DNA from: a virus
Strand: one strand, 5' to 3'
UHGV virus genome: UHGV-1351279
Length of the DNA stretch: 64,000 bases
Below, piece by piece: positions 52,026 to 64,000 of this stretch (position 1 is the stretch's first letter; each line of letters starts with the position of its first letter). The notes beneath the pieces are model-generated. The model ran no database searches. It saw nothing but the letters and a program-made list of their open reading frames with translations, and had not been told where the DNA came from. A program made the translations under genes and the position numbers.

Positions 52026-52358
52026 TTATTTTTTATTATCAAAATAATTTAATACTTCAATATCTGTTATCATAAGAGTAGTATATTTACAATCAGGTTT
52101 ATTATAATACAAAATTATTTGCCAATCTCCAAAACCATTTTCTCTGGATAGATAAATAATTTCTGGAGATACATTAATCTTTTTACTTATATACTCTTTT
52201 ACTTGTTCTTTTGTAGCAAATCTTGGTAGAGTTATTGGATAATCACCAAATGGATTCATATATTTTACAACTATATAACAAAATATACCCCATGGAATTA
52301 CTATAAAGACAGTATTAAATAAAAGAGTAAGTAAATCTTGTTTTATACTTTCACTCAT
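52026..52358 (-). CDS. membrane-anchored hypothetical protein
   Basis: N-terminal TM helix. Confidence 0.4.
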   Translation of the reverse strand: MSESIKQDLLTLLFNTVFIVIPWGIFCYIVVKYMNPFGDYPITLPRFATKEQVKEYISKKINVSPEIIYLSRENGFGDWQIILYYNKPDCKYTTLMITDIEVLNYFDNKK

Positions 52359-52927
52359 AGTAAAGGTTTTGCTTGTTCTAACAGCTCTCCATGTTCCTCA
52401 AAAAACTTGTTTCTTACTTCTTCTGTTTTAAAAGATAATATTCTATTTGCAGAAAAAGAGTTTCCTTTCTCTATTTTATCTAACTCTGTGAATATATTGT
52501 ATTTCCTTATGGTATCATCTTTCCAATTAGGTTTCCAACCCTCATTGTAATAGTCTCTTAACCAAATAAGTTTAGCAAGAGCTTTAAAAGCTTCTGCTAT
52601 TCTCTCATCAGGAAGCTCTATTTCATGTAATATAGAAATGTATCCGCCATTAATTAATGAATCCATTCTAACATTATCGTATGTTGGTGTGAATTTCTCT
52701 TGTTCAAACCCTTTTAACTCTACTTCATAGGGCTTTATTGATAAGGTTGGTATAGAGCATAATCCAAAAGAGCCGTCTATGTGATAAAAATAATCATCTC
52801 CATTAAAAACAACTTTTATATACCAATAACCATCAACATCTCTTTCTATTTCAACTATTTTCCCTTTGGAATCTGGGAAATTTACTTGGTCATATACTTC
52901 TTGACCTACTTTAAATATTGTTTTCAT
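52355..52927 (-). CDS. hypothetical protein, paralog family A (MKTIFKVGQEVYD...)
   Basis: Shares its N-terminus and the E(Y/V)xLKGF(E/N)Q motif with the genes at 56126-56536 and 56536-56952. Confidence 0.5.
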   Translation of the reverse strand: MKTIFKVGQEVYDQVNFPDSKGKIVEIERDVDGYWYIKVVFNGDDYFYHIDGSFGLCSIPTLSIKPYEVELKGFEQEKFTPTYDNVRMDSLINGGYISILHEIELPDERIAEAFKALAKLIWLRDYYNEGWKPNWKDDTIRKYNIFTELDKIEKGNSFSANRILSFKTEEVRNKFFEEHGELLEQAKPLL

Positions 52928-53340
52928 AAGTTACCTATTTTACAAAGTGTTATTACAAGTATGTTTTTATAGATAAAAGCTTTTATAATTGGACTTTTAC
53001 ATATATCTAACTGTTTTATACAAAAAACCAACATATCTAATACTTTATTCTTAGATATTTCCTCATTGGAATAACTTTCTATTTTTGATTTCAAATTATA
53101 TCTATTTTTAGTTTTGTAGATATAATCATATAAAAGGTTTCCACTTTTAATATGAAGCCCATTAGTTGTCAAAATAATAAGCTGTGTAAAAAGAAAATTG
53201 TTTAAATTACAATCATCTTTTTCTTTCAATCTTTCTAATATCTCTATTAACTCTTTATTAGACTTTAGTTTATGCCAACTAAACAAACAATTATTAATAA
53301 CAGGTATGAAAGAATCTTTAGTTATTTTCATATAATTCAA
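52924..53340 (-). CDS. hypothetical protein
   Basis: 138-aa ORF. Confidence 0.4.
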   Translation of the reverse strand: MNYMKITKDSFIPVINNCLFSWHKLKSNKELIEILERLKEKDDCNLNNFLFTQLIILTTNGLHIKSGNLLYDYIYKTKNRYNLKSKIESYSNEEISKNKVLDMLVFCIKQLDICKSPIIKAFIYKNILVITLCKIGNL

Positions 53341-53776
53341 TTAGTTTATTGACTAATGCTTCTCTTGCTTCCTCATATTTTTCAAAATTCTTATAGTTAG
53401 CAGAGTAAAATAGTACATCACCAGATATGTTTCTTATCATATATCCATAGTTGTAATGTGTCTCATCATGAAGACCAAAATCATCATACTCTATTGTTCC
53501 TATAAGTCCTCTATCTCTAAACCATTTAAAAGCTGTTTCATAATCAAAAATAGAAACTTTTTCTAAAGAATCATTGTAGTTTACAGACTCCATATTTTTA
53601 TGTGTTCCTTTATAATTATTTTCCATTTCATCTAATTCAAAATGAAAAATATCTGGATTTCTTTTATAAAAATATAGAAAACATCTTTCTTTGAAACCTA
53701 TATTTTTCATCTTCTCAGCTAATTCAGTAATTATAAGGTTTTTTAGAAACATTTTATTATCTTCTTTTATATACAT
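53318..53776 (-). CDS. hypothetical protein, paralog family B (WFR.kG....EY ... YEEAREALVNKLIELY)
   Basis: Conserved C-terminus shared with the genes at 53779-54084 and 55183-55626. Confidence 0.5.
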   Translation of the reverse strand: MYIKEDNKMFLKNLIITELAEKMKNIGFKERCFLYFYKRNPDIFHFELDEMENNYKGTHKNMESVNYNDSLEKVSIFDYETAFKWFRDRGLIGTIEYDDFGLHDETHYNYGYMIRNISGDVLFYSANYKNFEKYEEAREALVNKLIELYENN

Positions 53777-53778
53777 CT

Positions 53779-54084
53779 CTACTCTTTTTTATAAACTTCA
53801 ATTAATTTATTAACCAATGCTTCACGAGCTTCTTCATAGGTTTTAAAATAGCTTATTCTTGTTTGTAGTAATATACCAAATATACTTATTTTAAACATAT
53901 CATTATCAGAAGTATATTCTATGTGGGAGTGGAAGCCTTTACTTCTGAACCATTCTAAGACTTGTTCCCAAGTTGGAATTGCAGTTCTCAAAACAAAATT
54001 CTTGTATATATCTAATTTATCTTCTAAATCTTTATTGCTTACAAGTTCTACATCTTCTAATAAAACAATAGCTTCAGAATACAT
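53779..54084 (-). CDS. hypothetical protein, paralog family B
   Basis: LEWFRSKGFHSHIEY...YEEAREALVNKLIEVYKKE. Confidence 0.5.
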   Translation of the reverse strand: MYSEAIVLLEDVELVSNKDLEDKLDIYKNFVLRTAIPTWEQVLEWFRSKGFHSHIEYTSDNDMFKISIFGILLQTRISYFKTYEEAREALVNKLIEVYKKE

Positions 54085-55182: not shown

Positions 55183-55626
55183 TTAAGAATTAATTCTTTC
55201 ATTCTGTTTTTCTTTATAAATTTTAATTAATTCTTTTAAACACTCTCCTCTTGCTATTTCATAAGAAATATAATAATTAATATATTTTTCCCAAGCAAAA
55301 TCATGAATTATTTCATATAGATAACCTATTTTACACTTTAAATCAGGGTGAAATATATAGTCTATATTTGCTTTATAACCTTTATTTCTAAACCAGGAAA
55401 AAGCTTGTTCAAAAGTAGGTAAATCAGTAAAAGGACTGTTTGGCATGTTTCCTCCAATTACAAAATCTGAAATTAAAGGTTCATTAGAGGAACCATTCTT
55501 TAAACAAGCTGTAATTCCAATACCTTCTGAAAAAGAAAATATACAAGATTCATCAAAACCTAAGTCTTTCAATTCTTTGGCTAATTCTAAAGGAACTAAC
55601 CAATCAGGGTATTCATTCTTTTTCAT
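55183..55626 (-). CDS. hypothetical protein, paralog family B
   Basis: FSWFRNKGYKANIDY...YEIARGECLKELIKIYKEK. Confidence 0.45.
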   Translation of the reverse strand: MKKNEYPDWLVPLELAKELKDLGFDESCIFSFSEGIGITACLKNGSSNEPLISDFVIGGNMPNSPFTDLPTFEQAFSWFRNKGYKANIDYIFHPDLKCKIGYLYEIIHDFAWEKYINYYISYEIARGECLKELIKIYKEKQNERINS

Positions 55627-55907: not shown

Positions 55908-56129
55908 TTACTCTATTGTTTTACAATTATTTTCAATACTTTCTTTTATAACTTTGGTTATTTCTTTTAAATCTATTACATTACTAATGTAACATTTCTC
56001 TAATTTGAAGAGTTTTCCAAAAAATGGGTCATAAAGATAATTACAACCATTTATATTTATTGAAAAAGGCTCTTTAGAATGTTTTATCTTACTAAATAAA
56101 TCTTTTAAATCATCTTCAGTTGGTTTCAT
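55908..56129 (-). CDS. hypothetical small protein
   Basis: 73-aa ORF. Confidence 0.4.
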   Translation of the reverse strand: MKPTEDDLKDLFSKIKHSKEPFSININGCNYLYDPFFGKLFKLEKCYISNVIDLKEITKVIKESIENNCKTIE

Positions 56130-56536
56130 TCTAATCCAAGTATTTTAATCTGTTCGTCTGTTAGTGGTTCACAATAATCCCAATCATCACCTTCAGAATC
56201 ATAAAAATTTCCTTTTTCATCTACACTACTAAGTATACACAAATAAAAATAATCTTTATCGTATTTATGTTTAAATCTACACCATTTACCTATGTATTTA
56301 GTGTAATCTCTTGCATATATTTGATTAAAACCTTTCAATGTATACTCTGTAAAAGATAAGAGTTTTGAAGCTACTCCTTTTGAATAATGTACTTCATCTC
56401 CATTTTTAAATTTGACATCACAAACTAATTTTGAATCTTCTTCTTTTTCCCAATCAAAAGAGTACATAAAAATTACTACTCCCCAACCAAATCTTATGTC
56501 AAAGACTTTGTCACCTTTTTCAAATATTGTTTTCAT
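56126..56536 (-). CDS. hypothetical protein, paralog family A
   Basis: MKTIFEKGDKVFD...EYTLKGFNQ...PLTDEQIKILGLE. Confidence 0.5.
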   Translation of the reverse strand: MKTIFEKGDKVFDIRFGWGVVIFMYSFDWEKEEDSKLVCDVKFKNGDEVHYSKGVASKLLSFTEYTLKGFNQIYARDYTKYIGKWCRFKHKYDKDYFYLCILSSVDEKGNFYDSEGDDWDYCEPLTDEQIKILGLE

Positions 56537-56952
56537 TATAAATTAAGTATTTTAATTTGTTCTTCAGTTAATGGTTTAAAATTCTTGTATGATTCATCTT
56601 CACAACTTTTAAAAGGATATATACTATTATTTTCATAGTTATAGAGTTTGCCAATTCTATTTGTATTTTCAAAGTCTTCTATATCATCATAAAATACACC
56701 CCAAGTACCAAAGTATTCACTATAATCAATAATAGGTTCTTGAGTAAAACCTTCTAATGTATATTCTTTAGTTGCTAAAGTTGGTTTATCAGTAACTTGT
56801 TCACATATAGTTCCATTTAAATGATACCAAATTTCTTCTTTTGGTTTTTTATCAAATAGTACAGAAATATATTTTGTCTCTATCTTTTTTATTGTTCCCC
56901 AACCAAAGAAGAAGTCAAATACTCTTTGGTTTACTTTAAATTTTGTTCTCAT
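56536..56952 (-). CDS. hypothetical protein, paralog family A (in tandem with 56126-56536)
   Basis: MRTKFKVNQRVFD...EYTLEGFTQE...PLTEEQIKILNL. Confidence 0.5.
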   Translation of the reverse strand: MRTKFKVNQRVFDFFFGWGTIKKIETKYISVLFDKKPKEEIWYHLNGTICEQVTDKPTLATKEYTLEGFTQEPIIDYSEYFGTWGVFYDDIEDFENTNRIGKLYNYENNSIYPFKSCEDESYKNFKPLTEEQIKILNL

Positions 56953-56955
56953 TTT

Positions 56956-57180
56956 TTACCCTTTTAGACTATCATAAATATTGTTTATTTCTTCACATAT
57001 CTCAGAAATATCATACATTAGTTCTTGTGTAGATTTATCTGATGTAAGTTCTTTAAAATCTTTTCTTTTAAAGTGTTCTTTTCCCTTATCATTAATAGTT
57101 TTAAACTCTTGTAAAGCTTCTTTTACTTTTATAGAAGCTTGTTTTAAGTCTTCTAAGTTTTTTATTATTTCTTCTTTCAT
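56956..57180 (-). CDS. hypothetical small protein
   Basis: 74-aa ORF. Confidence 0.4.
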   Translation of the reverse strand: MKEEIIKNLEDLKQASIKVKEALQEFKTINDKGKEHFKRKDFKELTSDKSTQELMYDISEICEEINNIYDSLKG

Positions 57181-57431
57181 ATACTATCAATTATATTTTT
57201 TACTAATTTATCTGTGTTCTCTGAGAGTTTCTTGGATATTATCTTTAGTATATCTAATGACAAATCTTCATCTACACAAAGTGTAAAAGACTCTCCTATT
57301 TCATTGAAGAAAGATACTTTACCTTCATACCTATCTTTTTGTTTTTCTTCTTCTTTTTCAAAAGAGTAACCTTTTTTAAATTCTAATGAAAACTCTTTTA
57401 TTCTAAAATTCTTATTCATAATTAATGACAT
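57177..57431 (-). CDS. hypothetical small protein
   Basis: 84-aa ORF overlapping the polymerase's 3' end. Confidence 0.4.
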   Translation of the reverse strand: MSLIMNKNFRIKEFSLEFKKGYSFEKEEEKQKDRYEGKVSFFNEIGESFTLCVDEDLSLDILKIISKKLSENTDKLVKNIIDSI

Positions 57432-60400
57432 TCTGCATAATTAACTCCAAAGTCTGCACTTATATCCATTGGTATTGAAAACTTTATTTTATCATTTACT
57501 TTTGAAATACACTCTTTTAGATATTTTAATATACTATCTTTAGAGATATTATTATTAAAATAACATAAGTACTCATCATGTATCTGAAGCATTACTGTAT
57601 TTACTCTTTTTCTTACTTCTTGTAAGTAACAATCAAAAACAAATACAGCAGTACTTTGATTTAGTGATGAAAATATATCTTTAAAATACCTAAGTGAAAT
57701 CCAAAAGTTACTTACAGGATTAAGTATATACATAGTATTTACAGTTTGTAAAAAACTGTTTTGTAATTTTTGACACCTTTTCTTTTCTTTCTTACTATTG
57801 TCTTTAGGTAAAAAATCTACTGTCTTATATACTTTTACTTCCCCTGTTTTGTGTATTACTTTCAATAAGAGGTCTTTCTCTACATCTAACACAGATTTAT
57901 TCATAGTCCAATAACCATCTAATATAGTCTCTGCTTCTTCTTTTGTACAATCTAAGTTTTTAGCTAATGTTGGAGCTCCAACTTTATATACAGAAGAATT
58001 TCCTGTTATAACTACTAAATCATTTTGTTTTGCAATAAAAGTTTTATTTTTATTGTTTACACAAAACACATCTGTATACCTACTAAAATCTTTTTTTAGT
58101 TTTTGACCTGTTATGTTTCTCCTATTTCTTATAAAGACATCAACACAAACATTATTTTTATAAACTTTTCCTTTTGATAATTTGTAAAAGTACCCATTTA
58201 AAGTTAAAGCTAAACAAAAAGCATCTAATATTTTACCCTTATTTTGAGTAAATATCTTTTGACCCTCTTTTTTATGACCATCTCCTTTTAACATGTGTAT
58301 TATGAACTCTTCTCTTATGTCATGTGGTATGTTTATTATAAGGTTAGTGTAATCTATGTCTTTTTTATTTCTTTCAGGTAAATTAAGTCTGTAAAACAAA
58401 CTTCTTATTTCTGATGGTGATAGGTCATAGTAAGTAAGTCCATCTTTTCTTGTATAAGTTCTGTATTTATAATTATTCAATACTTTTTCTAAATCTTCTT
58501 TGTTACTTTTTTGACCTATTTTACATATAACATGTCTTTTTTTACCATTAGAATTAGATGTACCATTTAATTTATCAGACCATTCTACATAACCTTCTGT
58601 TAGAATCCAAGCTAAAAGCCTTATATCTTCAACATTGTAATCTCTGTTTGTGTTTTTATAAGGTGCTGAAACAATTATTTTATCATTTTTGTTTATATCT
58701 TTTGTTTCAACAAAAACGTTTTTATAATATGTTTCCTTGTTTTTTGATGTTATTTTTTTAGAAGAAAACCATTTATGGTTTGGTGTACATTCAAAAGAAA
58801 AATGACTATTATGTAAGCTTATAACTTCTTGTTTTTCAAAATAGGGTATAGAGTCTATTTTTACAACTTCTAATTCATTTAATTCTGTATTATAAGAAAA
58901 AATGCAATCATCTAATTTTAGTTGCTCATATTTTTTCCAACCCTCTGTTGTTAAAATTTCTGTTATATCAGTTGGCAAACAAAAATTTACTATTTTAGCC
59001 TTATTTCTCATAGTTTTTAATTCTAAAAATTCTTTTTTTTCATCTTCATTTTTTTCTTCTTTTTTATCTAATTCTTTATATCTATTAGCTTGTTTTTCAC
59101 TCATTAAACCTGAAAATTTTGCAATTTCAATATGTGCATCATATCCTGGAACTCTTTTTTTATTTACATAATCAGGGTCAAATTTGTACATATAATTATC
59201 TTGAGTTGTTGCTTCAGCTGCTGATAAGTCAGAACCACACAGTATAGTATTTTCTTTAGGAGAAAGAATTAAACCTCTAATCTCTTTACCATAAAAGGTA
59301 TTTGGTTTAGGTAAATTACTAATAGGTTTTCTGTGTAGAAATCTAAAGGTATTTGATAAACCTCCAGCAGTAGCATAAACACAATTATTCTTGTCCATAC
59401 TTTCCATAAAAGACTTAAACACTCCTATCCTATGAGTTATTAAAGAAAGGTCATTAAACAGCTCTATTTCTGGTACTATTTCTATTAATTTTTTTACAGA
59501 ATTACATATTTTACCATTATCATCATAAATCTGTTCTACCTCTTTTTTAGTACCTTTTTTCTTATCTTTTACTGTTTTATAAGTACAAGGTATCCAACCT
59601 AATGAGTAAAACCATTTTTTTACCTGGTCTACACTTCCTGGATTAGGTTCTTCCTCTTCACATATTAAAGTAACTATTCCTTCATAATCTTCAGGTAATT
59701 CTTGTTCTTGTAAAATAGCTAACCACTTTTTACCTGCTTCACTCAAAGAACCATCTTTCTTAGTCATTTTATTGGGTTTAGTTACCTCTTTGTATTTATA
59801 TACTTTAGGCATTATTCCTTTTAAAATTTCTACTTTTTCATTATAGATTGTTTCAAGCTCATCTAAAGATTTGTAAAGTAATTTCGTATCTACTTTTATC
59901 TTTACTTCTTCTTGCTCTCTTAGACAATCCATTTTGAAGTTTAAATAGTTAATGATTCTTTCTTTATCCTCCTGTTTAGAATATAGTTTATGAAGAAAAA
60001 TTATTTGATTGTGAAATAATCTCTGATTAATCTCAACATCTTCACTGCACCTGTGAATATATTCCTCAATAGTTAGATTACTCCAATCAGATATTTTAGG
60101 TTTAGGTACTCCAAATTCTTCTCCAAAGGATTCTAATCCATGAGATTTTCTCCCTATATATAAATACCATGATAATCCCATAGTATCTATAATTTTAAGC
60201 TCCTTTGGCTTTTTCCAACCTAATAATTTTTTTAATACAGGTAAATCAAATCTTAGAATGTTATGCCCAATTAATGTTTCTTGTTTATCTAAAAAGGTGA
60301 TAATATCATTAGGATTCACTAAAGCTCCCTTTTCTAATAAAATACCTTTTTCATAAATTTGATAACAAAAACAATGTAGTTTTGTTACCTCATCTAATAA

Positions 60401-60436
60401 GCCATCACACTCCAAATCAAATATTGTGTAACTCAT
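57422..60436 (-). CDS. family-A DNA polymerase (3'-5' exonuclease plus polymerase domains), interrupted by an intein
   Basis: Exo I IFDLECDG, motif A LCGSDLSAAE, motif B split as RNKAKIVNF / SSVYKVG, and motif C MLQIHDEYL. Length is 1004 aa including the 328-aa insert. Confidence 0.75.
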   Translation of the reverse strand: MSYTIFDLECDGLLDEVTKLHCFCYQIYEKGILLEKGALVNPNDIITFLDKQETLIGHNILRFDLPVLKKLLGWKKPKELKIIDTMGLSWYLYIGRKSHGLESFGEEFGVPKPKISDWSNLTIEEYIHRCSEDVEINQRLFHNQIIFLHKLYSKQEDKERIINYLNFKMDCLREQEEVKIKVDTKLLYKSLDELETIYNEKVEILKGIMPKVYKYKEVTKPNKMTKKDGSLSEAGKKWLAILQEQELPEDYEGIVTLICEEEEPNPGSVDQVKKWFYSLGWIPCTYKTVKDKKKGTKKEVEQIYDDNGKICNSVKKLIEIVPEIELFNDLSLITHRIGVFKSFMESMDKNNCVYATAGGLSNTFRFLHRKPISNLPKPNTFYGKEIRGLILSPKENTILCGSDLSAAEATTQDNYMYKFDPDYVNKKRVPGYDAHIEIAKFSGLMSEKQANRYKELDKKEEKNEDEKKEFLELKTMRNKAKIVNFCLPTDITEILTTEGWKKYEQLKLDDCIFSYNTELNELEVVKIDSIPYFEKQEVISLHNSHFSFECTPNHKWFSSKKITSKNKETYYKNVFVETKDINKNDKIIVSAPYKNTNRDYNVEDIRLLAWILTEGYVEWSDKLNGTSNSNGKKRHVICKIGQKSNKEDLEKVLNNYKYRTYTRKDGLTYYDLSPSEIRSLFYRLNLPERNKKDIDYTNLIINIPHDIREEFIIHMLKGDGHKKEGQKIFTQNKGKILDAFCLALTLNGYFYKLSKGKVYKNNVCVDVFIRNRRNITGQKLKKDFSRYTDVFCVNNKNKTFIAKQNDLVVITGNSSVYKVGAPTLAKNLDCTKEEAETILDGYWTMNKSVLDVEKDLLLKVIHKTGEVKVYKTVDFLPKDNSKKEKKRCQKLQNSFLQTVNTMYILNPVSNFWISLRYFKDIFSSLNQSTAVFVFDCYLQEVRKRVNTVMLQIHDEYLCYFNNNISKDSILKYLKECISKVNDKIKFSIPMDISADFGVNYAECH
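57998..58981 (-). mobile_element. intein (Hint domain) carrying a LAGLIDADG homing-endonuclease domain, inserted in polymerase motif B
   Basis: Begins with Cys486 (CLPTDITEIL). Has TPNHKW (block B), LLAWILTEGYV and FIIHMLKGDGHK (LAGLIDADG pair). Ends ...VVITGN813 with Ser814 at +1. The flanks reconstitute RNKAKIVNF-SSVYKVG, matching RRxAKxxNFGxxYG. Confidence 0.7.
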
Positions 60437-60438
60437 TG

Positions 60439-61020
60439 CTATTCTTTTAAACCTTGTTCAATAATATTCTCCATCATATTTGAGTTTATAGTTCTTGTAC
60501 CATCAGGGTTATATTTAATACACAATCTCAAATCTTTTAGTTTACTCCATTTACCTCTTGCAAATAAGTTTGGGTCTACTAAATAAACAGATTTTGATAT
60601 TGGTATTAATATATTCTCTTTCTTTAGCTTAGATATAGCAACATCAATTGTTTCTATTTTTAATCCTGTGTCCTTAGACATAAGAATTTTTGTGTCTTTT
60701 ACTGCTATAAACTTATTATCATACCCCATTCTAAGAACTATTGAATATAGTACCAAAGAAACATTTTTCTCTAATGAGAATATTCTTTTTATATCACTTA
60801 AATATAATTTTAGAAAGTCAGGCTCTGTTGATACAATTGCTGTTTTAAAGTTTTTTACTTTTAAAACTTCTCCTGTATCATTATTGATTTCAATGGTTTC
60901 TTCTTCATAAGTTACCTTTTTCACTTTTTCTTGCTTAGGTTTATTCAACCTATTTACTTTTGTTACTTTCATTTCTAATAGCTTTTCTAATTCCCTGCAA
61001 AGGTATGTAATATTTTCCAC
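60439..61020 (-). CDS. hypothetical protein, candidate DNA-binding regulator or initiator next to the half-site array
   Basis: 193-aa ORF immediately downstream of the operator-like array. No firm motif. Confidence 0.35.
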   Translation of the reverse strand: MENITYLCRELEKLLEMKVTKVNRLNKPKQEKVKKVTYEEETIEINNDTGEVLKVKNFKTAIVSTEPDFLKLYLSDIKRIFSLEKNVSLVLYSIVLRMGYDNKFIAVKDTKILMSKDTGLKIETIDVAISKLKKENILIPISKSVYLVDPNLFARGKWSKLKDLRLCIKYNPDGTRTINSNMMENIIEQGLKE

Positions 61021-61061
61021 TTATGATATTTCTTTAGTACAGTTTAACAAATCTCTTCAAG

Positions 61062-61131
61062 CTTATGGTAGCCATAAGTGAGACTTATGGTAATCATAAG
61101 TTCAACTTATCATAACCATAAGTTAGACTTA
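61062..61131. promoter_or_regulatory. array of about 7 alternating inverted 7-mer half-sites (CTTATGG / CCATAAG) at roughly 10-11-bp spacing; candidate operator or origin
   Basis: CTTATGGtagCCATAAGtgagaCTTATGGtaatCATAAGTtcaACTTATcataaCCATAAGTtagACTTAg, read directly from the sequence. Confidence 0.55.
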
Positions 61132-61268
61132 GCTTCAAATGGAATACAAAAGCCTGATTATCATTGGGTTATAAGAGAGGTAAAGTGTAAATTCCTTCTT
61201 TTATTATTTTATTGTATAGTGTAAAGTCCATATATTTTATACAAAAAATAAAAAGGAAAGTGAGGTAA

Positions 61269-61310
61269 TTAAAGGGCAGAATTAACTACCCTTTAATATA
61301 CCAATGTTAT
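61269..61310 (-). terminator. hairpin (ttaaaggg / ccctttaa, 12-nt loop) followed on the - strand by T-rich tract ttacctcactttcctttttatttttt
   Basis: Lies downstream of the gene ending at 61384. It contains the 11-mer GAAAGTGAGGT that is also found at the 42.14-kb terminator. Confidence 0.4.
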
Positions 61311-61383
61311 GGCAACTTAGAAACTCTACTCCAAAGATACATTCACACATATCAGTTTCTTTAAGTCATAACACAGTGGAATC

Positions 61384-61632
61384 TTATACTTGCTCATCAT
61401 TAAGTGTCAAGTTATTGACTAAAGAGATAATCCTGAAATCCTTCTCTGAACTATTACAAATAAAGTAACTTTCAGAAAGTAATACATTATTCTCTCCTAA
61501 ATCATAAATGACATATAACTTATGATAATCAAGTGAATCCTTACCCTTTCTTTTGATGAACTCTAATATTGCATCTCTCGTGGGTAACCCCTTAAATTCT
61601 AAGCCTTGCTTTATCTCTAAAATTGTCTTCAT
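61384..61632 (-). CDS. hypothetical small protein
   Basis: 82-aa ORF. Confidence 0.4.
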   Translation of the reverse strand: MKTILEIKQGLEFKGLPTRDAILEFIKRKGKDSLDYHKLYVIYDLGENNVLLSESYFICNSSEKDFRIISLVNNLTLNDEQV

Positions 61633-61638
61633 AATATT

Positions 61639-61800
61639 CTATTTTGAATGTGATGAAAATGATATATAAGCAAAAAATACAAAAAGTACTGTACTTATAA
61701 CACCTGCTACTTCATTAGAAAATATACAAACAGAAGTAAAAGTTATTATTATCCAAATGATAAATAATATAAATTCTAAGTTTTTGTCACTATCACTCAT
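61639..61800 (-). CDS. unannotated small membrane protein (53 aa) MSDSDKNLEFILFIIWIIITFTSVCIFSNEVAGVISTVLFVFFAYISFSSHSK
   Basis: Hand-translated. It has a TAATATG junction with the upstream gene. Confidence 0.3.
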   Translation of the reverse strand: MSDSDKNLEFILFIIWIIITFTSVCIFSNEVAGVISTVLFVFFAYISFSSHSK

Positions 61801-61801
61801 A

Positions 61802-61999
61802 TTAAAACCATTTAAATAAAATAATTGAACCTGTTTGCTCTTCTATCTTTCTATTAATAGAAATAAAAGACTCTTCAGAGATGTTTTTTCTCTGCTCTTT
61901 TGCTTTGTTAGTGTAATATTCACTTCTTTCTTTATTACCTAACTTTCCCATTACTACTGCATTATTTAAATACATGTAGTATTTTGTTTCTTCTTTCAT
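61802..61999 (-). CDS. hypothetical small protein
   Basis: 65-aa ORF. Confidence 0.4.
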   Translation of the reverse strand: MKEETKYYMYLNNAVVMGKLGNKERSEYYTNKAKEQRKNISEESFISINRKIEEQTGSIILFKWF

Positions 62000-62329
62000 G
62001 GTATTTAGTATTTAAAAAATTGTTATTAAATAAAAAAGGCTTTTAGTACTGATATTTGCCTGTTGCAGTGTTTGTTCCACGATAGTATATAATAAGTATT
62101 ATCTTTATTAGAAACTCAATGTAACCATCCTGTGGATTTTATAACATGCTATTGTTAAAACTAAAGTTGTTTTATAATATTAAACTATTTTATTACTACT
62201 ATCTTCCCGTAACTTACGAGTACAAATTCTTGACTAAAAGCCTTATCCTTTAAGTAGTGTTGTATAAAAAAGTTTCAGGTACTCAGATATAGAGGCCTTT
62301 CCCCGAAACTAAAACATAAATACTACAAA

Positions 62330-62674
62330 CTACCAATATTCCTTAAACCTCTTTAATGTATTTATGAAATCTTCTTTTATATCCTCTAAAAGAAGTATTA
62401 CATCTTCATTCTTTAGGTATTCATCTTTATCTAATGTCATTGGATTATTTATACTGTCAATATAAATAACCTCATGTAAATCACTTAAAAAAGAATATTT
62501 ATTACTTCTATGCTTTTTTAAGTAATTCAACAAAATGTTGAAATAGCCATTCTCTCCTTTATATTTAGAATAGCTTAATAATTGTTGTAATCTTATATAC
62601 AACCTTTCTGCATGGTCTAAAAGACCTTTTCTGTAGAGTTCAAAATTTATCTCTACTAAATTATTTCCTTTCAT
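62330..62674 (-). CDS. hypothetical protein
   Basis: 114-aa ORF. Confidence 0.4.
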   Translation of the reverse strand: MKGNNLVEINFELYRKGLLDHAERLYIRLQQLLSYSKYKGENGYFNILLNYLKKHRSNKYSFLSDLHEVIYIDSINNPMTLDKDEYLKNEDVILLLEDIKEDFINTLKRFKEYW

Positions 62675-62737
62675 AGTACTTATGTTTAAAATTAAATAAC
62701 TAAGTCTGGTTTTTGAATAGAACCAGACAAAACTATT

Positions 62738-63034
62738 TTATTGATTTACTACTTGCCACTTAACATATTTTCTACTTAACGGTACTATTGCTATACCATA
62801 ATCAGTCCATGCTAAATGAAACAAGTTATCATACCTGTCTATAAATATGTCACTACCTTCATCAGTTAATGAGTCATTTTCTATTAGTTGGCACCTAATA
62901 TCAAAATCACCATTGATGGTTAATATGCCATCTTCATAAGGTAATTCATATACACAACCCCCTATCCAAAACTTCTCTGTCTTTGGAGGTAATAAACTGA
63001 AAAGGCTTGCTAAAGCTAATATTATTGTATTCAT
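62738..63034 (-). CDS. small secreted protein (signal peptide)
   Basis: N-terminus MNTIILALASLFSLLPP. Confidence 0.4.
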   Translation of the reverse strand: MNTIILALASLFSLLPPKTEKFWIGGCVYELPYEDGILTINGDFDIRCQLIENDSLTDEGSDIFIDRYDNLFHLAWTDYGIAIVPLSRKYVKWQVVNQ

Positions 63035-63087
63035 GTTATTTATATTTTAAATTTAAAAAGGAGTTTTTGTAGGAACTCCTCAAAACC

Positions 63088-63750
63088 TTAGTAAAACCCA
63101 CAATGAGACTTAGTGAAGGCTATTTTGTACTCATAAAGAGCTTCTCTTTCACCATATAAATGAAAGTATTCTATGTTACCCTTATCTAAGGTTTTAAGCT
63201 TAGTATTTAGCTCTTTTATTGCTAAATCTATCTCTTCCTCTGTAGAGAAATCATAGAAGCTATTCCTTACATAGTCCTCACAAAAAGATAAGTACTTAGG
63301 AAAATCAATAAGTAATTTTATTAACTTATCAATTGTATGTTCCATAGTCCTATATTTCTCTATTAAATTATAGCATTCTTCTTTGAACTCTTTAATTATA
63401 AAAGATTCACTATCTATGCTATTATAAGTTTCAAGAAATACATTTTTATTATACTTATATTCATCTTTAAGAGAAGTGAGTTTTTTAATTAATACCTCTG
63501 TATCAAAAGTATTAACTAATTCTTCTAAGCTGTATTCAGAGAAATTCTCTAATGTAGCCTTGAAGTTTTTGAGACTCTCTCGAATATTATTCTCAGTCTC
63601 CTTTGATATGGTGCCAGTGTTTAGATAAATGTAAACAAAAGAAGGACTCACATTTAAAATGTCTTTATAATCCTCCTCATAGTCATTTTTATCAAAATCA
63701 CACCAGTTGCCCCAATCATCTACAAATGTTTGTAATTCTATAAAATTCAT
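63088..63750 (-). CDS. hypothetical protein
   Basis: 220-aa ORF. Confidence 0.45.
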   Translation of the reverse strand: MNFIELQTFVDDWGNWCDFDKNDYEEDYKDILNVSPSFVYIYLNTGTISKETENNIRESLKNFKATLENFSEYSLEELVNTFDTEVLIKKLTSLKDEYKYNKNVFLETYNSIDSESFIIKEFKEECYNLIEKYRTMEHTIDKLIKLLIDFPKYLSFCEDYVRNSFYDFSTEEEIDLAIKELNTKLKTLDKGNIEYFHLYGEREALYEYKIAFTKSHCGFY

Positions 63751-63804
63751 TGTATTTATGTTTTAAAATTAATAAGGCAGTTTTTATCAGAACTGCCAAA
63801 ACTG

Positions 63805-63993
63805 TTACATGTAATTATAGTAGTTACTCTTTAAAGCATCTTGAAGACTTATTAAAGAATCCTTGATGTTGTAAGTGTAATTCTCCATATCTTCTTTTTG
63901 TATTGTAAACATTATTATACTCCCAATGTAATTATACAAAAAGTGAAAAATACTAATTGACATGTGATTACTATAATGCAAAGACTTAATCAT
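63805..63993 (-). CDS. hypothetical small protein
   Basis: 62-aa ORF near the window edge. Confidence 0.3.
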   Translation of the reverse strand: MIKSLHYSNHMSISIFHFLYNYIGSIIMFTIQKEDMENYTYNIKDSLISLQDALKSNYYNYM

Positions 63994-64000
63994 ATCTAAG

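What the first reader, a model, noticed from the sequence alone, without database searches (positions are those of the whole stretch)
61062..61131. Array of alternating inverted 7-mers (CTTATGG / CCATAAG) at helical-turn spacing in a 360-bp intergenic region
Seven half-sites alternate in orientation every 10-11 bp, forming three overlapping palindromes. The array lies just upstream, on the - strand, of the 193-aa gene that heads the long replication operon. It is flanked by a terminator hairpin at 61269-61296. This geometry suits cooperative binding of a dimeric regulator or replication initiator. It could be the early operator or the replication origin.
Basis: seen in the sequence. Interest (0 to 1): 0.65.

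Follow-up and report, generated by a model that had tools for sequence, protein, structure and literature searches.

The report
Initiator-binding repeats at phage replication origin
The repeat array is real and is most likely the binding site (iterons) of the plasmid-type replication initiator RepL encoded next to it in a crAss-like gut phage, a familiar kind of replication origin not previously described for these phages in the papers I could search.

Summary
Window 61061-61133 holds three 19-bp palindromes (ACTTATGG-nnn-CCATAAGT) at exactly 22-bp spacing, plus a degenerate seventh half-site. It is the only period-22 array and the top-scoring tandem repeat in the 64 kb, and the palindrome occurs nowhere else. 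The adjacent "193-aa" gene is a RepL-family (Pfam PF05732) replication initiator. The genome is a ~97-kb Crassvirales-like phage. Relatives at 64-87% protein identity keep the array: the outer arms are invariant, while centres, linkers and copy number vary. About 14 of 18 RepL lineages examined, including circular 2.4-5 kb plasmids where RepL is the only Rep seen, carry a 21-22-bp-period array, often palindromic, upstream of repL. The repeat sequence differs in each lineage. In pHW126-like plasmids (pIGRK, pIGMS31), whose Rep proteins are reported as distant RepL relatives, four repeats at 22-bp period plus a conserved block are the experimentally defined origin and the Rep binding site. Best reading: RepL iterons forming the origin core, with an AT-rich unwinding tract beside them, and probably also autoregulating repL. 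Binding and origin activity are inferred, not shown. The GC-skew minimum lies ~3.5 kb away and is uninformative. Verdict: a new member of a known kind, of moderate interest.

The parts
61061..61133 (.). Whole iteron array: three 22-bp units plus a degenerate seventh half-site, on an 11-bp lattice of 8-mers with alternating orientation.
   Evidence: It is conserved in relatives.
61061..61079 (.). Palindrome nearest repL: GCTTATGGTAGCCATAAGT.
   Evidence: 1 mismatch to the consensus. In gene orientation it always ends ...CCATAAGC in the close relatives.
61083..61101 (.). Middle palindrome: ACTTATGGTAATCATAAGT.
61105..61123 (.). Distal palindrome: ACTTATCATAACCATAAGT.
   Evidence: This is the unit missing in relative L003, which has two units.
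61127..61133 (.). Degenerate seventh half-site: ACTTAGC.
   Evidence: It is conserved in the 79-87% relatives but absent in the 64% relative L006. The binding unit is therefore taken as ACTTATGG-nnn-CCATAAGT.
61017..61027 (-). Isolated half-site ATCATAAGTGG between the array and the repL start; candidate auxiliary or operator site.
   Evidence: Repeat families D3 and I7. It is invariant in the close relatives. Its function is inferred.
60998..61005 (-). TACCTTTG, a match to the Bacteroidota-type -7 promoter motif TAnnTTTG, 26 nt upstream of ATG 60972. Weak candidate for the repL promoter.
   Evidence: One search gives the position, but the motif occurs 0.76 times per kb per strand by chance. 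It is invariant in relatives, and equivalent motifs lie before repL in L006, L008 and L012. It could equally be the codons Y-L-C of a longer RepL.
60439..60972 (-). repL, a RepL-family replication initiator. It is 177 aa from ATG 60972; a conserved in-frame extension to GTG 61020 would give 193 aa.
   Evidence: Pfam PF05732, E = 2e-11, 44.1 bits against a cutoff of 20.3. Most gene callers use the 177-aa start. The AF2 model has a winged-helix core at residues 58-132. It is the only RepL ORF in the window.
61134..61179 (.). Block next to the array, strongly conserved among close relatives. Possible counterpart of the 'conserved region' of pHW126-like origins.
   Evidence: Alignment A1 columns ~320-385. 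Analogy with the CR element. Sequence similarity to the plasmid CR was not tested.
61180..61269 (.). AT-rich tract of low duplex stability; candidate DNA-unwinding element.
   Evidence: Seven of the eight overlapping 40-mers starting at 61170-61240 are 78-85% AT and fall in the 87th-99th percentile of least stable 40-mers in the window; the one starting at 61240 does not (34th percentile). Function is inferred. Some relatives carry a ~100-nt insertion here.
61264..61302 (-). Strong stem-loop followed by a T-rich run; terminator-like end of the upstream gene block.
   Evidence: -20.7 kcal/mol, z = -4.85. L005 has a different stem-forming sequence at the same place. The consensus terminator scan did not call it.
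57422..60436 (-). Context only: family A DNA polymerase gene immediately downstream of repL, with a ~320-aa intein-like insert.
   Evidence: phrog_17 E = 1.1e-79 and DNA_pol_A C-terminus. The insert has no Pfam match.

Best explanation
The array is a set of iterons for the RepL-family initiator encoded 90-140 bp away.

Inferred mechanism, step by step:
- RepL has a single winged-helix DNA-binding core. It binds each 19-bp palindrome as a dimer, reading the invariant outer arms ACTTAT(G) and (C)ATAAGT.
- The 22-bp period (two helical turns) puts three dimers, and possibly a seventh monomer, on one face of the DNA. This allows cooperative assembly of a nucleoprotein complex.
- That complex destabilises the neighbouring AT-rich tract at 61180-61269, or nicks nearby as reported for the plasmid relative RepM. 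It then admits the phage's own DnaB-like helicase, primase and PolA, which are encoded downstream on the same strand.
- The same occupancy, together with the isolated half-site at 61017-61027, probably represses repL transcription.

What is shown:
- the anatomy of the array
- its uniqueness in the window and within 10 kb in relatives
- its conservation pattern among relatives
- the RepL identity of the adjacent gene
- the family-wide association of repL with 21-22-bp-period arrays

What is inferred: binding, stoichiometry, origin firing and autoregulation.
For: 1. The array is real, unique and non-random. Its palindrome occurs nowhere else in the 64 kb, nor within +/-10 kb of repL in three closest relatives (L026-L028; L028 is cut short downstream).

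2. The adjacent gene is RepL PF05732. The AF2 model gives one winged-helix core. Its nearest folds are winged-helix domains of dimeric DNA-binding regulators, but the matches are weak.

3. There is a binding-site signature among 18 distinct units from ten genomes at 64-100% RepL identity. Positions ACTTAT.G and .ATAAG are invariant or nearly so. The centre, the linkers and the copy number (2 or 3) vary. Arm variants are not compensatory, so the constraint is on sequence rather than on a hairpin.

4. Across the family the sequence changes while the geometry stays. A 21-22-bp-period array lies upstream of repL in about 14 of 18 lineages, each with its own sequence. Examples are TGTCACTgtgagAGTGACA, ATTACATgagggATGTAAT, TCCTCgctcaGAGGA (14 copies), TGATACnnnGTATCA, and three direct repeats of TTGTTACTCGTGGGTGTGAACA. 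For comparison, there is one period-22 array in the whole 64 kb of the window.

5. Many homologues sit on 2.4-3.5-kb plasmids; those inspected in detail are circular (~2.4-5.4 kb), most carry a relaxase gene, and RepL is the only Rep seen. The array must therefore lie in or next to their origin.

6. Experimental precedent comes from pIGRK and pIGMS31, whose Rep proteins are wHTH dimers reported as distantly related to pSN2 RepL. Their origin is a conserved region plus four 20-bp repeats with 2-nt spacers (22-bp period) upstream of rep. Rep binds the repeats and the promoter inverted repeats, and it autorepresses. The origin region (conserved region plus repeats) acts as an incompatibility determinant.

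7. The layout matches classical origins: terminator, AT-rich tract, conserved block, iterons, rep.

8. For the prototype crAssphage, an origin was predicted directly upstream of a repL gene, with a read-coverage peak there (PMC10983915).
Against: - No binding or replication data exist for this phage or for any crAss-like RepL.
- The cumulative GC-skew minimum in full-length relatives lies about 3.5 kb upstream of the array, near the switch in gene orientation. Skew here follows transcription direction, so this is weak evidence either way.
- A 1.2-kb non-coding divergent region about 5 kb upstream, outside the window, is an alternative origin site.
- Three or four of the 18 RepL lineages showed no comparable array.
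- The array lies upstream of the candidate core promoter rather than over it. The promoter itself is not securely located: TAnnTTTG is frequent by chance.
- The structural model is of only moderate confidence (pLDDT 72), and no PDB match reached E < 0.01.
- The link between PF05732 and the pHW126-like Reps rests on the authors' statement and on architecture. I did not align the two directly.
Confidence: 0.7

Rival explanations
1. The array is purely a transcriptional operator. RepL, or another phage or host dimeric HTH protein, binds it only to repress or time transcription of the repL-polA unit. Replication starts elsewhere, for example in the 1.2-kb divergent region or by recombination-dependent priming.
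For: Three palindromic sites at about two-turn spacing next to a gene start resemble phage operators. An extra half-site lies between the array and the start codon. The Rep proteins of pIGRK and pIGMS31 do autorepress through related repeats. The GC-skew minimum and the large non-coding gap are several kb away.
Against: The array ends about 55 bp upstream of the best promoter candidate rather than overlapping it. The same 21-22-bp arrays accompany repL on tiny plasmids, where an origin must be present, and in pIGRK the repeats plus CR suffice as the origin with Rep in trans. No cI/Cro-like gene was seen among the neighbouring ORFs scanned (nine ORFs across ~56.9-63.8 kb; three small ORFs in that span were not scanned). 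A non-RepL binder would not explain why the repeat sequence changes with the RepL lineage.
Confidence: 0.17
2. The array is the double-strand origin for rolling-circle (sigma) replication. RepL binds the repeats and nicks one strand nearby, starting concatemer synthesis rather than theta-type unwinding.
For: pHW126 was classed as a rolling-circle plasmid. RepM of pIGMS31 nicks just upstream of the CR next to the iterons, and 2D gels show both rolling-circle and theta intermediates. The palindromes can extrude as hairpins (ssDNA fold -15.5 kcal/mol, z = -5.6). Tailed phages need concatemers for packaging (general knowledge).
Against: RepL-type proteins lack HUH/Tyr nuclease motifs, as the same authors state. 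Arm variation is not compensatory, so hairpin structure is not what is conserved. The phage encodes a full helicase-primase-polymerase set suited to fork assembly. This is a sub-variant of the best explanation, with the same site and protein but different chemistry.
Confidence: 0.1
3. The array is a structured RNA or DNA element, or a chance low-complexity repeat, with no protein-binding role.
For: The region folds better than shuffled sequence as a single strand.
Against: There is no Rfam family match; only two sub-threshold chance hits. Substitutions in the arms are not compensatory. The array is conserved in relatives down to 64% protein identity, while the spacers drift. The family-wide periodicity cannot be chance.
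Confidence: 0.03

Closest known systems
Origins of pHW126-like plasmids (pHW126, pIGRK, pIGMS31)
   Same: The Rep is a small wHTH protein that dimerises and is reported as distantly related to pSN2 RepL. Iteron-like repeats at a 22-bp period (20 bp plus a 2-nt spacer, four copies) lie directly upstream of rep, next to a short conserved block. In these plasmids Rep binds the repeats and related inverted repeats at its own promoter and represses itself. E. coli 2.4-kb plasmids with that architecture (4.4 x 22 bp, MobV relaxase) encode a protein 29% identical to the window's RepL.
   Different: Here each unit is a 19-bp palindrome rather than a plain direct repeat, and there are three copies rather than four. 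The host replicon is a ~97-kb lytic-type phage with its own replisome, not a 2-3-kb plasmid. No ssi-like element was sought. Similarity to the plasmid CR sequence and direct homology to RepR/RepM were not tested.
Phage lambda ori (O-some)
   Same: Both are phage origins built from several 19-bp imperfect inverted repeats, each bound by a dimer of the phage initiator, next to an AT-rich tract that unwinds (PMC7466680). This is the closest functional analogue of palindromic iterons in a phage.
   Different: Lambda's iterons lie inside the O gene, whereas here they lie upstream of the initiator gene. I found no evidence that O protein and RepL are related, and did not test it. Lambda relies on host DnaB delivered by P, whereas this phage encodes its own helicase and primase. 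Transcriptional activation of the origin is unknown here.
Classical iteron plasmids (F RepE, R6K pi, pPS10 RepA, RK2 TrfA)
   Same: All have a tandem array of ~17-22-bp initiator sites in helical phase, an adjacent AT-rich unwinding element, autoregulation of rep, and an origin next to the rep gene (reviews listed, abstracts only (not read here); classification).
   Different: Those initiators have two winged-helix domains. Monomers bind direct repeats, and dimers bind a separate inverted-repeat operator. RepL is classed with the single-winged-helix initiators, and here the origin-type repeats are themselves palindromic.
Predicted origin upstream of repL in the prototype crAssphage (Carjivirus communis)
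   Same: It is also a crAss-like phage with RepL gene(s) at the replication module. Ori-Finder and read coverage place an origin directly upstream of one repL (PMC10983915).
   Different: That work describes no iterons or palindromes: the word 'iteron' has 0 occurrences. The window's phage is not close to any crAss-like genome in the phage collection at DNA level, has a single repL in the 64 kb, and its repL lies 5-6 kb inside the strand block rather than first. I could not fetch the C. communis record to compare.

Membership tests
RepL-type (PF05732 / pSN2 / pHW126-like) replicon origin | A RepL-family initiator gene lies immediately next to the repeats. | tested here: met
   PF05732, E = 2e-11, 44.1 bits against a cutoff of 20.3. 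There are 216 homologues with E <= 1e-5, and nearly all of the 120 listed are annotated PF05732.
RepL-type (PF05732 / pSN2 / pHW126-like) replicon origin | A tandem array of at least 3 repeats at ~22-bp period lies within a few hundred bp upstream of rep. | tested here: met
   3.2 x 22 bp, 90-160 bp upstream of ATG 60972. The same holds in about 14 of 18 lineages. pIGRK has 4 x (20+2) bp.
RepL-type (PF05732 / pSN2 / pHW126-like) replicon origin | The repeat sequence is specific to the Rep lineage: conserved among close relatives and different in distant ones. | tested here: met
   The arms are invariant at 64-100% protein identity. Repeats are unrelated at <= 50% identity.
RepL-type (PF05732 / pSN2 / pHW126-like) replicon origin | A short conserved region (CR) lies beside the iterons and is required in cis. 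| tested here: inconclusive
   A strongly conserved ~45-bp block at 61134-61179 adjoins the array in close relatives. It is not evident in the 64% relative. It was not compared with the plasmid CR.
RepL-type (PF05732 / pSN2 / pHW126-like) replicon origin | Rep binds the repeats (EMSA or footprint). | not testable with these tools
   Shown only for RepR and RepM of the plasmids.
RepL-type (PF05732 / pSN2 / pHW126-like) replicon origin | The region supports replication in cis when Rep is supplied in trans, and it exerts incompatibility. | not testable with these tools
   Shown for pIGRK and pIGMS31. No data exist for the phage.
Iteron-type origin in general | An AT-rich unwinding element adjoins the initiator sites. 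| tested here: met
   Region 61180-61269: 40-mers are 78-85% AT and reach the 95th-99th percentile of instability. It starts about 50 bp from the distal end of the array.
Iteron-type origin in general | The site coincides with the replication-associated strand-asymmetry switch. | tested here: not met
   The cumulative GC-skew minimum lies about 3.5 kb upstream, at the change in gene orientation. Skew here tracks transcription, so this feature is weakly diagnostic.
Lambda-type ori (O protein iterons) | The iterons lie inside the initiator gene, and the initiator belongs to the lambda O family. | tested here: not met
   The array is intergenic, and the initiator matches Pfam RepL (PF05732), with no lambda O-family match listed. 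This is functional resemblance only.
Classical double-winged-helix iteron initiators (Rep_3 / RepE / pi) | The initiator has two winged-helix domains, with monomers on direct repeats and dimers on a separate inverted-repeat operator. | tested here: not met
   The model shows one confident winged-helix core. Pfam gives RepL and no Rep_3. Each unit is itself palindromic.
Phage immunity operator (cI/Cro-type OR/OL) | Three dyad-symmetric sites overlap divergent or early promoters next to a repressor gene. | tested here: not met
   No repressor-like family was found among the neighbouring ORFs scanned. Genes on both sides run the same way. The sites do not overlap the best promoter candidate.

The most novel reading that the evidence does not exclude
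RepL plus its three palindromic iterons form a complete plasmid-derived mini-replicon, captured by a crAss-like phage from the small mobilisable plasmids of its Bacteroidota host. It would let the ~97-kb genome persist as a low-copy plasmid (carrier state) between lytic bursts. It would also make the phage incompatible with, or sensitive to, resident plasmids carrying the same iterons. In addition, the two conserved in-frame starts (GTG 61020 and ATG 60972) might yield an initiator and an inhibitor form, as in pIGRK.
Probability: 0.2. Interest if true: 0.7.

Novelty: new member of a known kind. Interest (0 to 1): 0.4.

Why it matters
crAss-like phages are among the most abundant viruses of the human gut. 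How they start DNA replication, and how they persist without lysogeny, is unresolved. This finding gives a precise ~250-bp candidate origin and a named initiator for one uncultured lineage. Both are directly testable by EMSA or footprinting, RepL-dependent replication of a vector, and read-depth profiles. The finding also ties the phage's initiator to a large family of 2-4-kb gut plasmids. A by-product of the survey is a simple rule: RepL genes are usually preceded by a 21-22-bp-period, often dyad-symmetric, array. That rule could help annotate origins in plasmids and phages. The mechanism itself is conventional iteron biology.

Tried and rejected
- DNA-level search of the phage collection with 57000-64000 found only two short, irrelevant hits, so no annotated close relative was available.
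- PHROGs gave nothing for the RepL protein.
- The sigma-70 promoter scan gave 11 weak hits against 5.4 expected. It is not appropriate for a Bacteroidota host.
- The terminator scan missed the hairpin.
- TAnnTTTG as a promoter marker turned out to be frequent by chance, at 0.76 per kb per strand. I therefore downgraded the promoter call.
- GC skew does not single out the array; it follows gene orientation.
- PDB sequence search gave no significant match, and fold search gave no match below E = 0.018. Only the generic winged-helix fold can be claimed.
- Rfam found no family, so the structured-RNA reading was rejected.
- Attempts to fetch the prototype crAssphage (NC_024711, JQ995537) and pIGRK (AY543071) failed because the records are not in the collections. 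Direct comparison with those reference systems was therefore not made.
- A DnaA-box reading of TTTTCCACT at 61014-61022 was considered and dropped. It has two mismatches to the TTATCCACA consensus, which I recalled from memory, and the CAC is not kept in L006.
- Pfam on the PolA insert returned nothing.

Full report
**1. The observation**

Window 61061-61133 reads, on the + strand: gCTTATGG-tag-CCATAAGT-gag-ACTTATGG-taa-tCATAAGT-tca-ACTTATca-taa-CCATAAGT-tag-ACTTAGc. It is a regular lattice of 8-mers separated by 3-nt spacers, with orientation alternating. This gives three 19-bp palindromes at 61061-79, 61083-101 and 61105-123, spaced exactly 22 bp apart, plus a degenerate seventh half-site.

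- Tandem Repeats Finder reports period 22, 3.2 copies, score 91. That is the best of 64 rows and the only period-22 array in the 64 kb.
- The 19-mer with up to 3 mismatches is found only at these three sites: 6 strand-matches against 0.16 expected, and no shuffle reached 6.
- The 7-mer alone occurs 16 times against 7.0 +/- 2.6 expected. Four of the 16 lie in the array, and the rest are a mild excess.

**2. The surroundings**

The window is 26-32% GC. Genes run on the + strand up to about 26 kb and on the - strand from there to the end.

- The + arm carries giant ORFs of 4508, 1800 and 1670 aa.
- The - arm carries primase, a DnaB-like helicase, a Dda-like helicase and a family A DNA polymerase.
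- The helicase is closest to those of Bacteroides crAss-like phages, at 36% identity.
- Contigs carrying RepL proteins >=64% identical to the window's are 91-103 kb.

This is an uncultured Crassvirales-like phage with no close DNA relative in the phage collection.

The "193-aa" ORF next to the array matches Pfam RepL (PF05732), E = 2e-11, 44.1 bits against a cutoff of 20.3. Most gene callers start it at ATG 60972, giving 177 aa. It is the only RepL-like ORF in the window.

An AlphaFold2 model built on 69 homologues has mean pLDDT 72, with most of residues ~61-135 above 85 (per-10-residue block means 83-96). It shows one winged-helix core: H58-65, H69-81, H92-102, H106-118 and a beta-wing at 122-132. 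The best PDB fold matches are winged-helix domains of dimeric regulators such as Zur/Fur, CRP/FNR, IclR and CodY. None is strong; the best E-value is 0.018. There is no sequence match in the PDB.

**3. Conservation in close relatives**

Nine relatives with RepL 64-100% identical keep the array at the same place. I compared 18 distinct 22-bp units.

- The outer arms are invariant or nearly so: A-C-T-T-A-T(17/18)-G and A(17/18)-T-A-A-G(17/18).
- The inner arm positions, the 3-nt centre and the 3-nt linkers vary.
- One relative (L003) has two units instead of three.
- Arm variants are not compensatory. For example, GG is found opposite TG, TC or CC, and GA opposite CC.

The constraint is therefore on base identity in duplex DNA, not on a hairpin, even though the single strand could fold. 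Rfam finds no family. The 64% relative lacks the degenerate seventh half-site, so the unit is best read as ACTTATGG-nnn-CCATAAGT. The palindrome occurs nowhere else within +/-10 kb of repL in the closest relatives.

**4. Distant relatives: same geometry, different sequence**

I examined the region upstream of repL in every lineage I could reach.

| Locus and source | Array upstream of repL |
|---|---|
| L011-L014, circular ~2.9-kb Mob_Pre plasmids, 47% identity (circularity) | 3 x 22-bp direct repeats, TTGTTACTCGTGGGTGTGAACA |
| L008 | 2 direct + 1 inverted TCTAATCTGGG, direct copies 22 bp apart |
| L015, E. coli 2.4-kb MobV plasmid | 4.4 x 22 bp |
| L016 and L024, Klebsiella and Aeromonas 3.4-kb plasmids | 3 x 22 bp, TGTCACTgtgagAGTGACA |
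| L018, Bacillus 5.4-kb plasmid | 3.3 x 22 bp, ATTACATgagggATGTAAT |
| L019, Erwinia pETR003-a | 14 x 22 bp, TCCTCgctcaGAGGA |
| L022, Sodalis phiSG1 | 3.3 x 22 bp |
| L025, Priestia plasmid | 4.3 x 22 bp |
| L020, Pseudoalteromonas phage HS5 | 2.7 x 21 bp |
| L034 and L036, IMG/VR contigs | 2.2 x 22 bp, GCTTATAAcTTATAAGC |
| L035, IMG/VR contig | three TGATACnnnGTATCA, 22 bp apart |
| L039, IMG/VR contig | 3 x 22 bp, TTGTAAtggggTTACAA |

Two lineages (L037, L040) showed nothing comparable. One (L038) had palindromes at a different spacing. One (L021) had only two copies, 21 bp apart. That makes roughly 14 of 18 lineages. The background is one period-22 array in the whole 64 kb of the window.

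A profile search found 216 homologues, and most of the 120 listed are on 2-4-kb contigs. A search of the plasmid collection found 159 plasmids, many of them 2.4-3.5 kb. The repeat sequence changes with the protein while the period stays constant. This is what is expected if RepL itself reads the repeats.

**5. Published experiments on the closest studied systems**

- pBI143-like Bacteroides plasmids type as RepL (PMC6927303).
- RepL (PF05732) of pSN2 is shown as a representative in a survey of winged-helix replication initiators that defines a single-winged-helix class (bioRxiv 2024.09.03.610885).
- The Rep proteins of pHW126-like plasmids are wHTH dimers that their authors describe as distantly related to pSN2 RepL.
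- In pIGRK the origin is a ~20-bp conserved region plus four 20-bp direct repeats separated by 2-nt spacers, which is a 22-bp period. This region replicates when RepR is supplied in trans and is an incompatibility determinant. RepR binds the repeats and represses its own promoter (PMC6854812).
- pIGMS31 behaves likewise. RepM also nicks next to the conserved region, and both rolling-circle and theta intermediates are seen (bioRxiv 2022.12.05.519187). pHW126 showed the origin-deletion behaviour typical of rolling-circle plasmids (PMC2831885).
- In phage lambda, the minimal O-binding site is a 19-bp imperfect inverted repeat. O is a dimer, and four such iterons adjoin an AT-rich tract (PMC7466680).
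- For the prototype crAssphage, Ori-Finder and read coverage place an origin directly upstream of a repL gene. No iterons are described there (PMC10983915).
- No paper in the searchable library combines 'crAss' with 'iteron' in a phage context.

**6. Most likely mechanism**

RepL dimers bind the three palindromes. The two-turn spacing aligns them on one face of the helix, which allows cooperative assembly.

The layout in the direction of transcription is:

1. terminator-like hairpin (61302-61264)
2. AT-rich tract of low stability (61269-61180, up to the 99th percentile of instability)
3. conserved block (61179-61134)
4. iterons (61133-61061)
5. isolated half-site (61027-61017)
6. repL

This is the order seen in iteron origins. 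I infer that the complex opens the AT-rich tract, or nicks nearby, and loads the phage helicase, primase and PolA. I also infer that it feeds back on repL expression. None of these steps is demonstrated for this phage.

**7. Uncertainties**

*Origin or operator only.* The cumulative GC-skew minimum in 20-kb loci from full-length relatives lies about 3.5 kb upstream of the array, where gene orientation changes. A 1.2-kb non-coding divergent gap lies about 5 kb upstream, beyond the window's end. Skew follows transcription here, so it neither supports nor excludes the array.

*The promoter.* TACCTTTG at 61005-60998 fits the Bacteroidota -7 motif (a consensus I recalled from memory) and is invariant in relatives. 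However, the motif is frequent by chance. It could equally be the codons Y-L-C of an N-terminal extension starting at GTG 61020. That extension's amino-acid sequence is conserved in the 64% relative: MENITYLCREL against MENVSYLCKEL. Two in-frame products, as in pIGRK, are possible but unproven.

*Homology to the plasmid Reps.* The link to pHW126-type Reps rests on the authors' statement and on shared architecture, not on an alignment made here. The reference records could not be fetched.

**8. Verdict**

It is a new member of a known kind: a RepL-type iteron origin with palindromic units, functionally like the lambda O-some, located in a crAss-like phage. Its interest is moderate. It gives a precise, testable origin and initiator for an important but poorly understood phage group, and it links that initiator to abundant small gut plasmids. 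The principle is textbook iteron biology.

Noticed in passing
window 57422-60436 (-); L026 10537-13817; L027 10537-12534: The family A DNA polymerase gene occurs in three states among near-identical phages. In the window it is one 1004-aa ORF with a ~320-aa insert that looks like an intein: it starts at Cys in ...NFC|LPTD, ends ...VITGN|S, and has LAGLIDADG-like motifs LLAWILTEGY and MLKGDGH, but no Pfam match. In L026 it is split into 368-aa and 261-aa ORFs by a free-standing GIY-YIG (SegE) homing-endonuclease gene. In L027 it is an uninterrupted 665-aa ORF.
   Followed up: partly
L023 (Klebsiella phage KP13MC5-1, OP617746.1, record 171754-173782) versus L015 (E. coli plasmid NZ_CP026575.2): The end of a 174-kb Slopekvirus record carries a RepL-like gene and a 4.4 x 22-bp array whose TRF consensus, copy number and score match those of 2.4-kb enterobacterial MobV plasmids. 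This probably reflects a co-assembled or contaminating small plasmid rather than a phage gene.
   Followed up: no
L026 3747-4950 and 4000-7000 (corresponds to ~64.0-67.2 kb, beyond the window end): A 1.2-kb non-coding gap separates the divergent gene blocks. It is followed by about 2-3 kb in which GC skew is near zero although the genes are already on the replication strand, and GC content there is higher (32-33%). The cumulative skew minimum falls here. This is an alternative origin, early-promoter or genome-end region. The crAssphage preprint reports a similar zero-skew zone.
   Followed up: partly
window 61517-61531 (inside the 82-aa ORF 61384-61632, - strand): AACTTATGATAATCA resembles one and a half half-sites of the array (93% to 61083-61096). 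It is a possible outlying RepL site or a chance match.
   Followed up: no
A1 alignment columns ~170-290 (between window 61180 and 61260); L002-L005: Four relatives carry a ~100-nt insertion between the hairpin and the conserved block. L005 has a different stem-forming sequence (GGTGAGGTT...AACCTCACC) in place of the window's hairpin. This is a structural replacement that supports a terminator role.
   Followed up: no
L019 (Erwinia tracheiphila pETR003-a, also deposited as Erwinia phage LS-2018a), locus 363-670: Fourteen perfect copies of a 22-bp iteron (TCCTCGCTCAGAGGATAAGTAG) lie upstream of repL. This is far more than the 3-4 copies seen elsewhere and may be a recent expansion.
   Followed up: no
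window 52355-52927, 56126-56536, 56536-56952; and 53318-53776, 53779-54084, 55183-55626 (all - strand): There are two families of small paralogous ORFs in the replication arm. One set starts MKTIFKVGQEVYD, MKTIFEKGDKVFD or MRTKFKVNQRVFD. The other shares a C-terminal ...YEEAREALVNKLIE(L/V)Y... motif. No function is assigned.
   Followed up: no
window 60973-61020 (-) and P0009 N-terminus: The 16-codon in-frame extension upstream of ATG 60972 opens directly after a stop codon with GTG (TTG in L006). It is conserved at the amino-acid level in the 64% relative. This raises the possibility of long and short RepL forms, as in pIGRK RepR/RepR'.
   Followed up: partly
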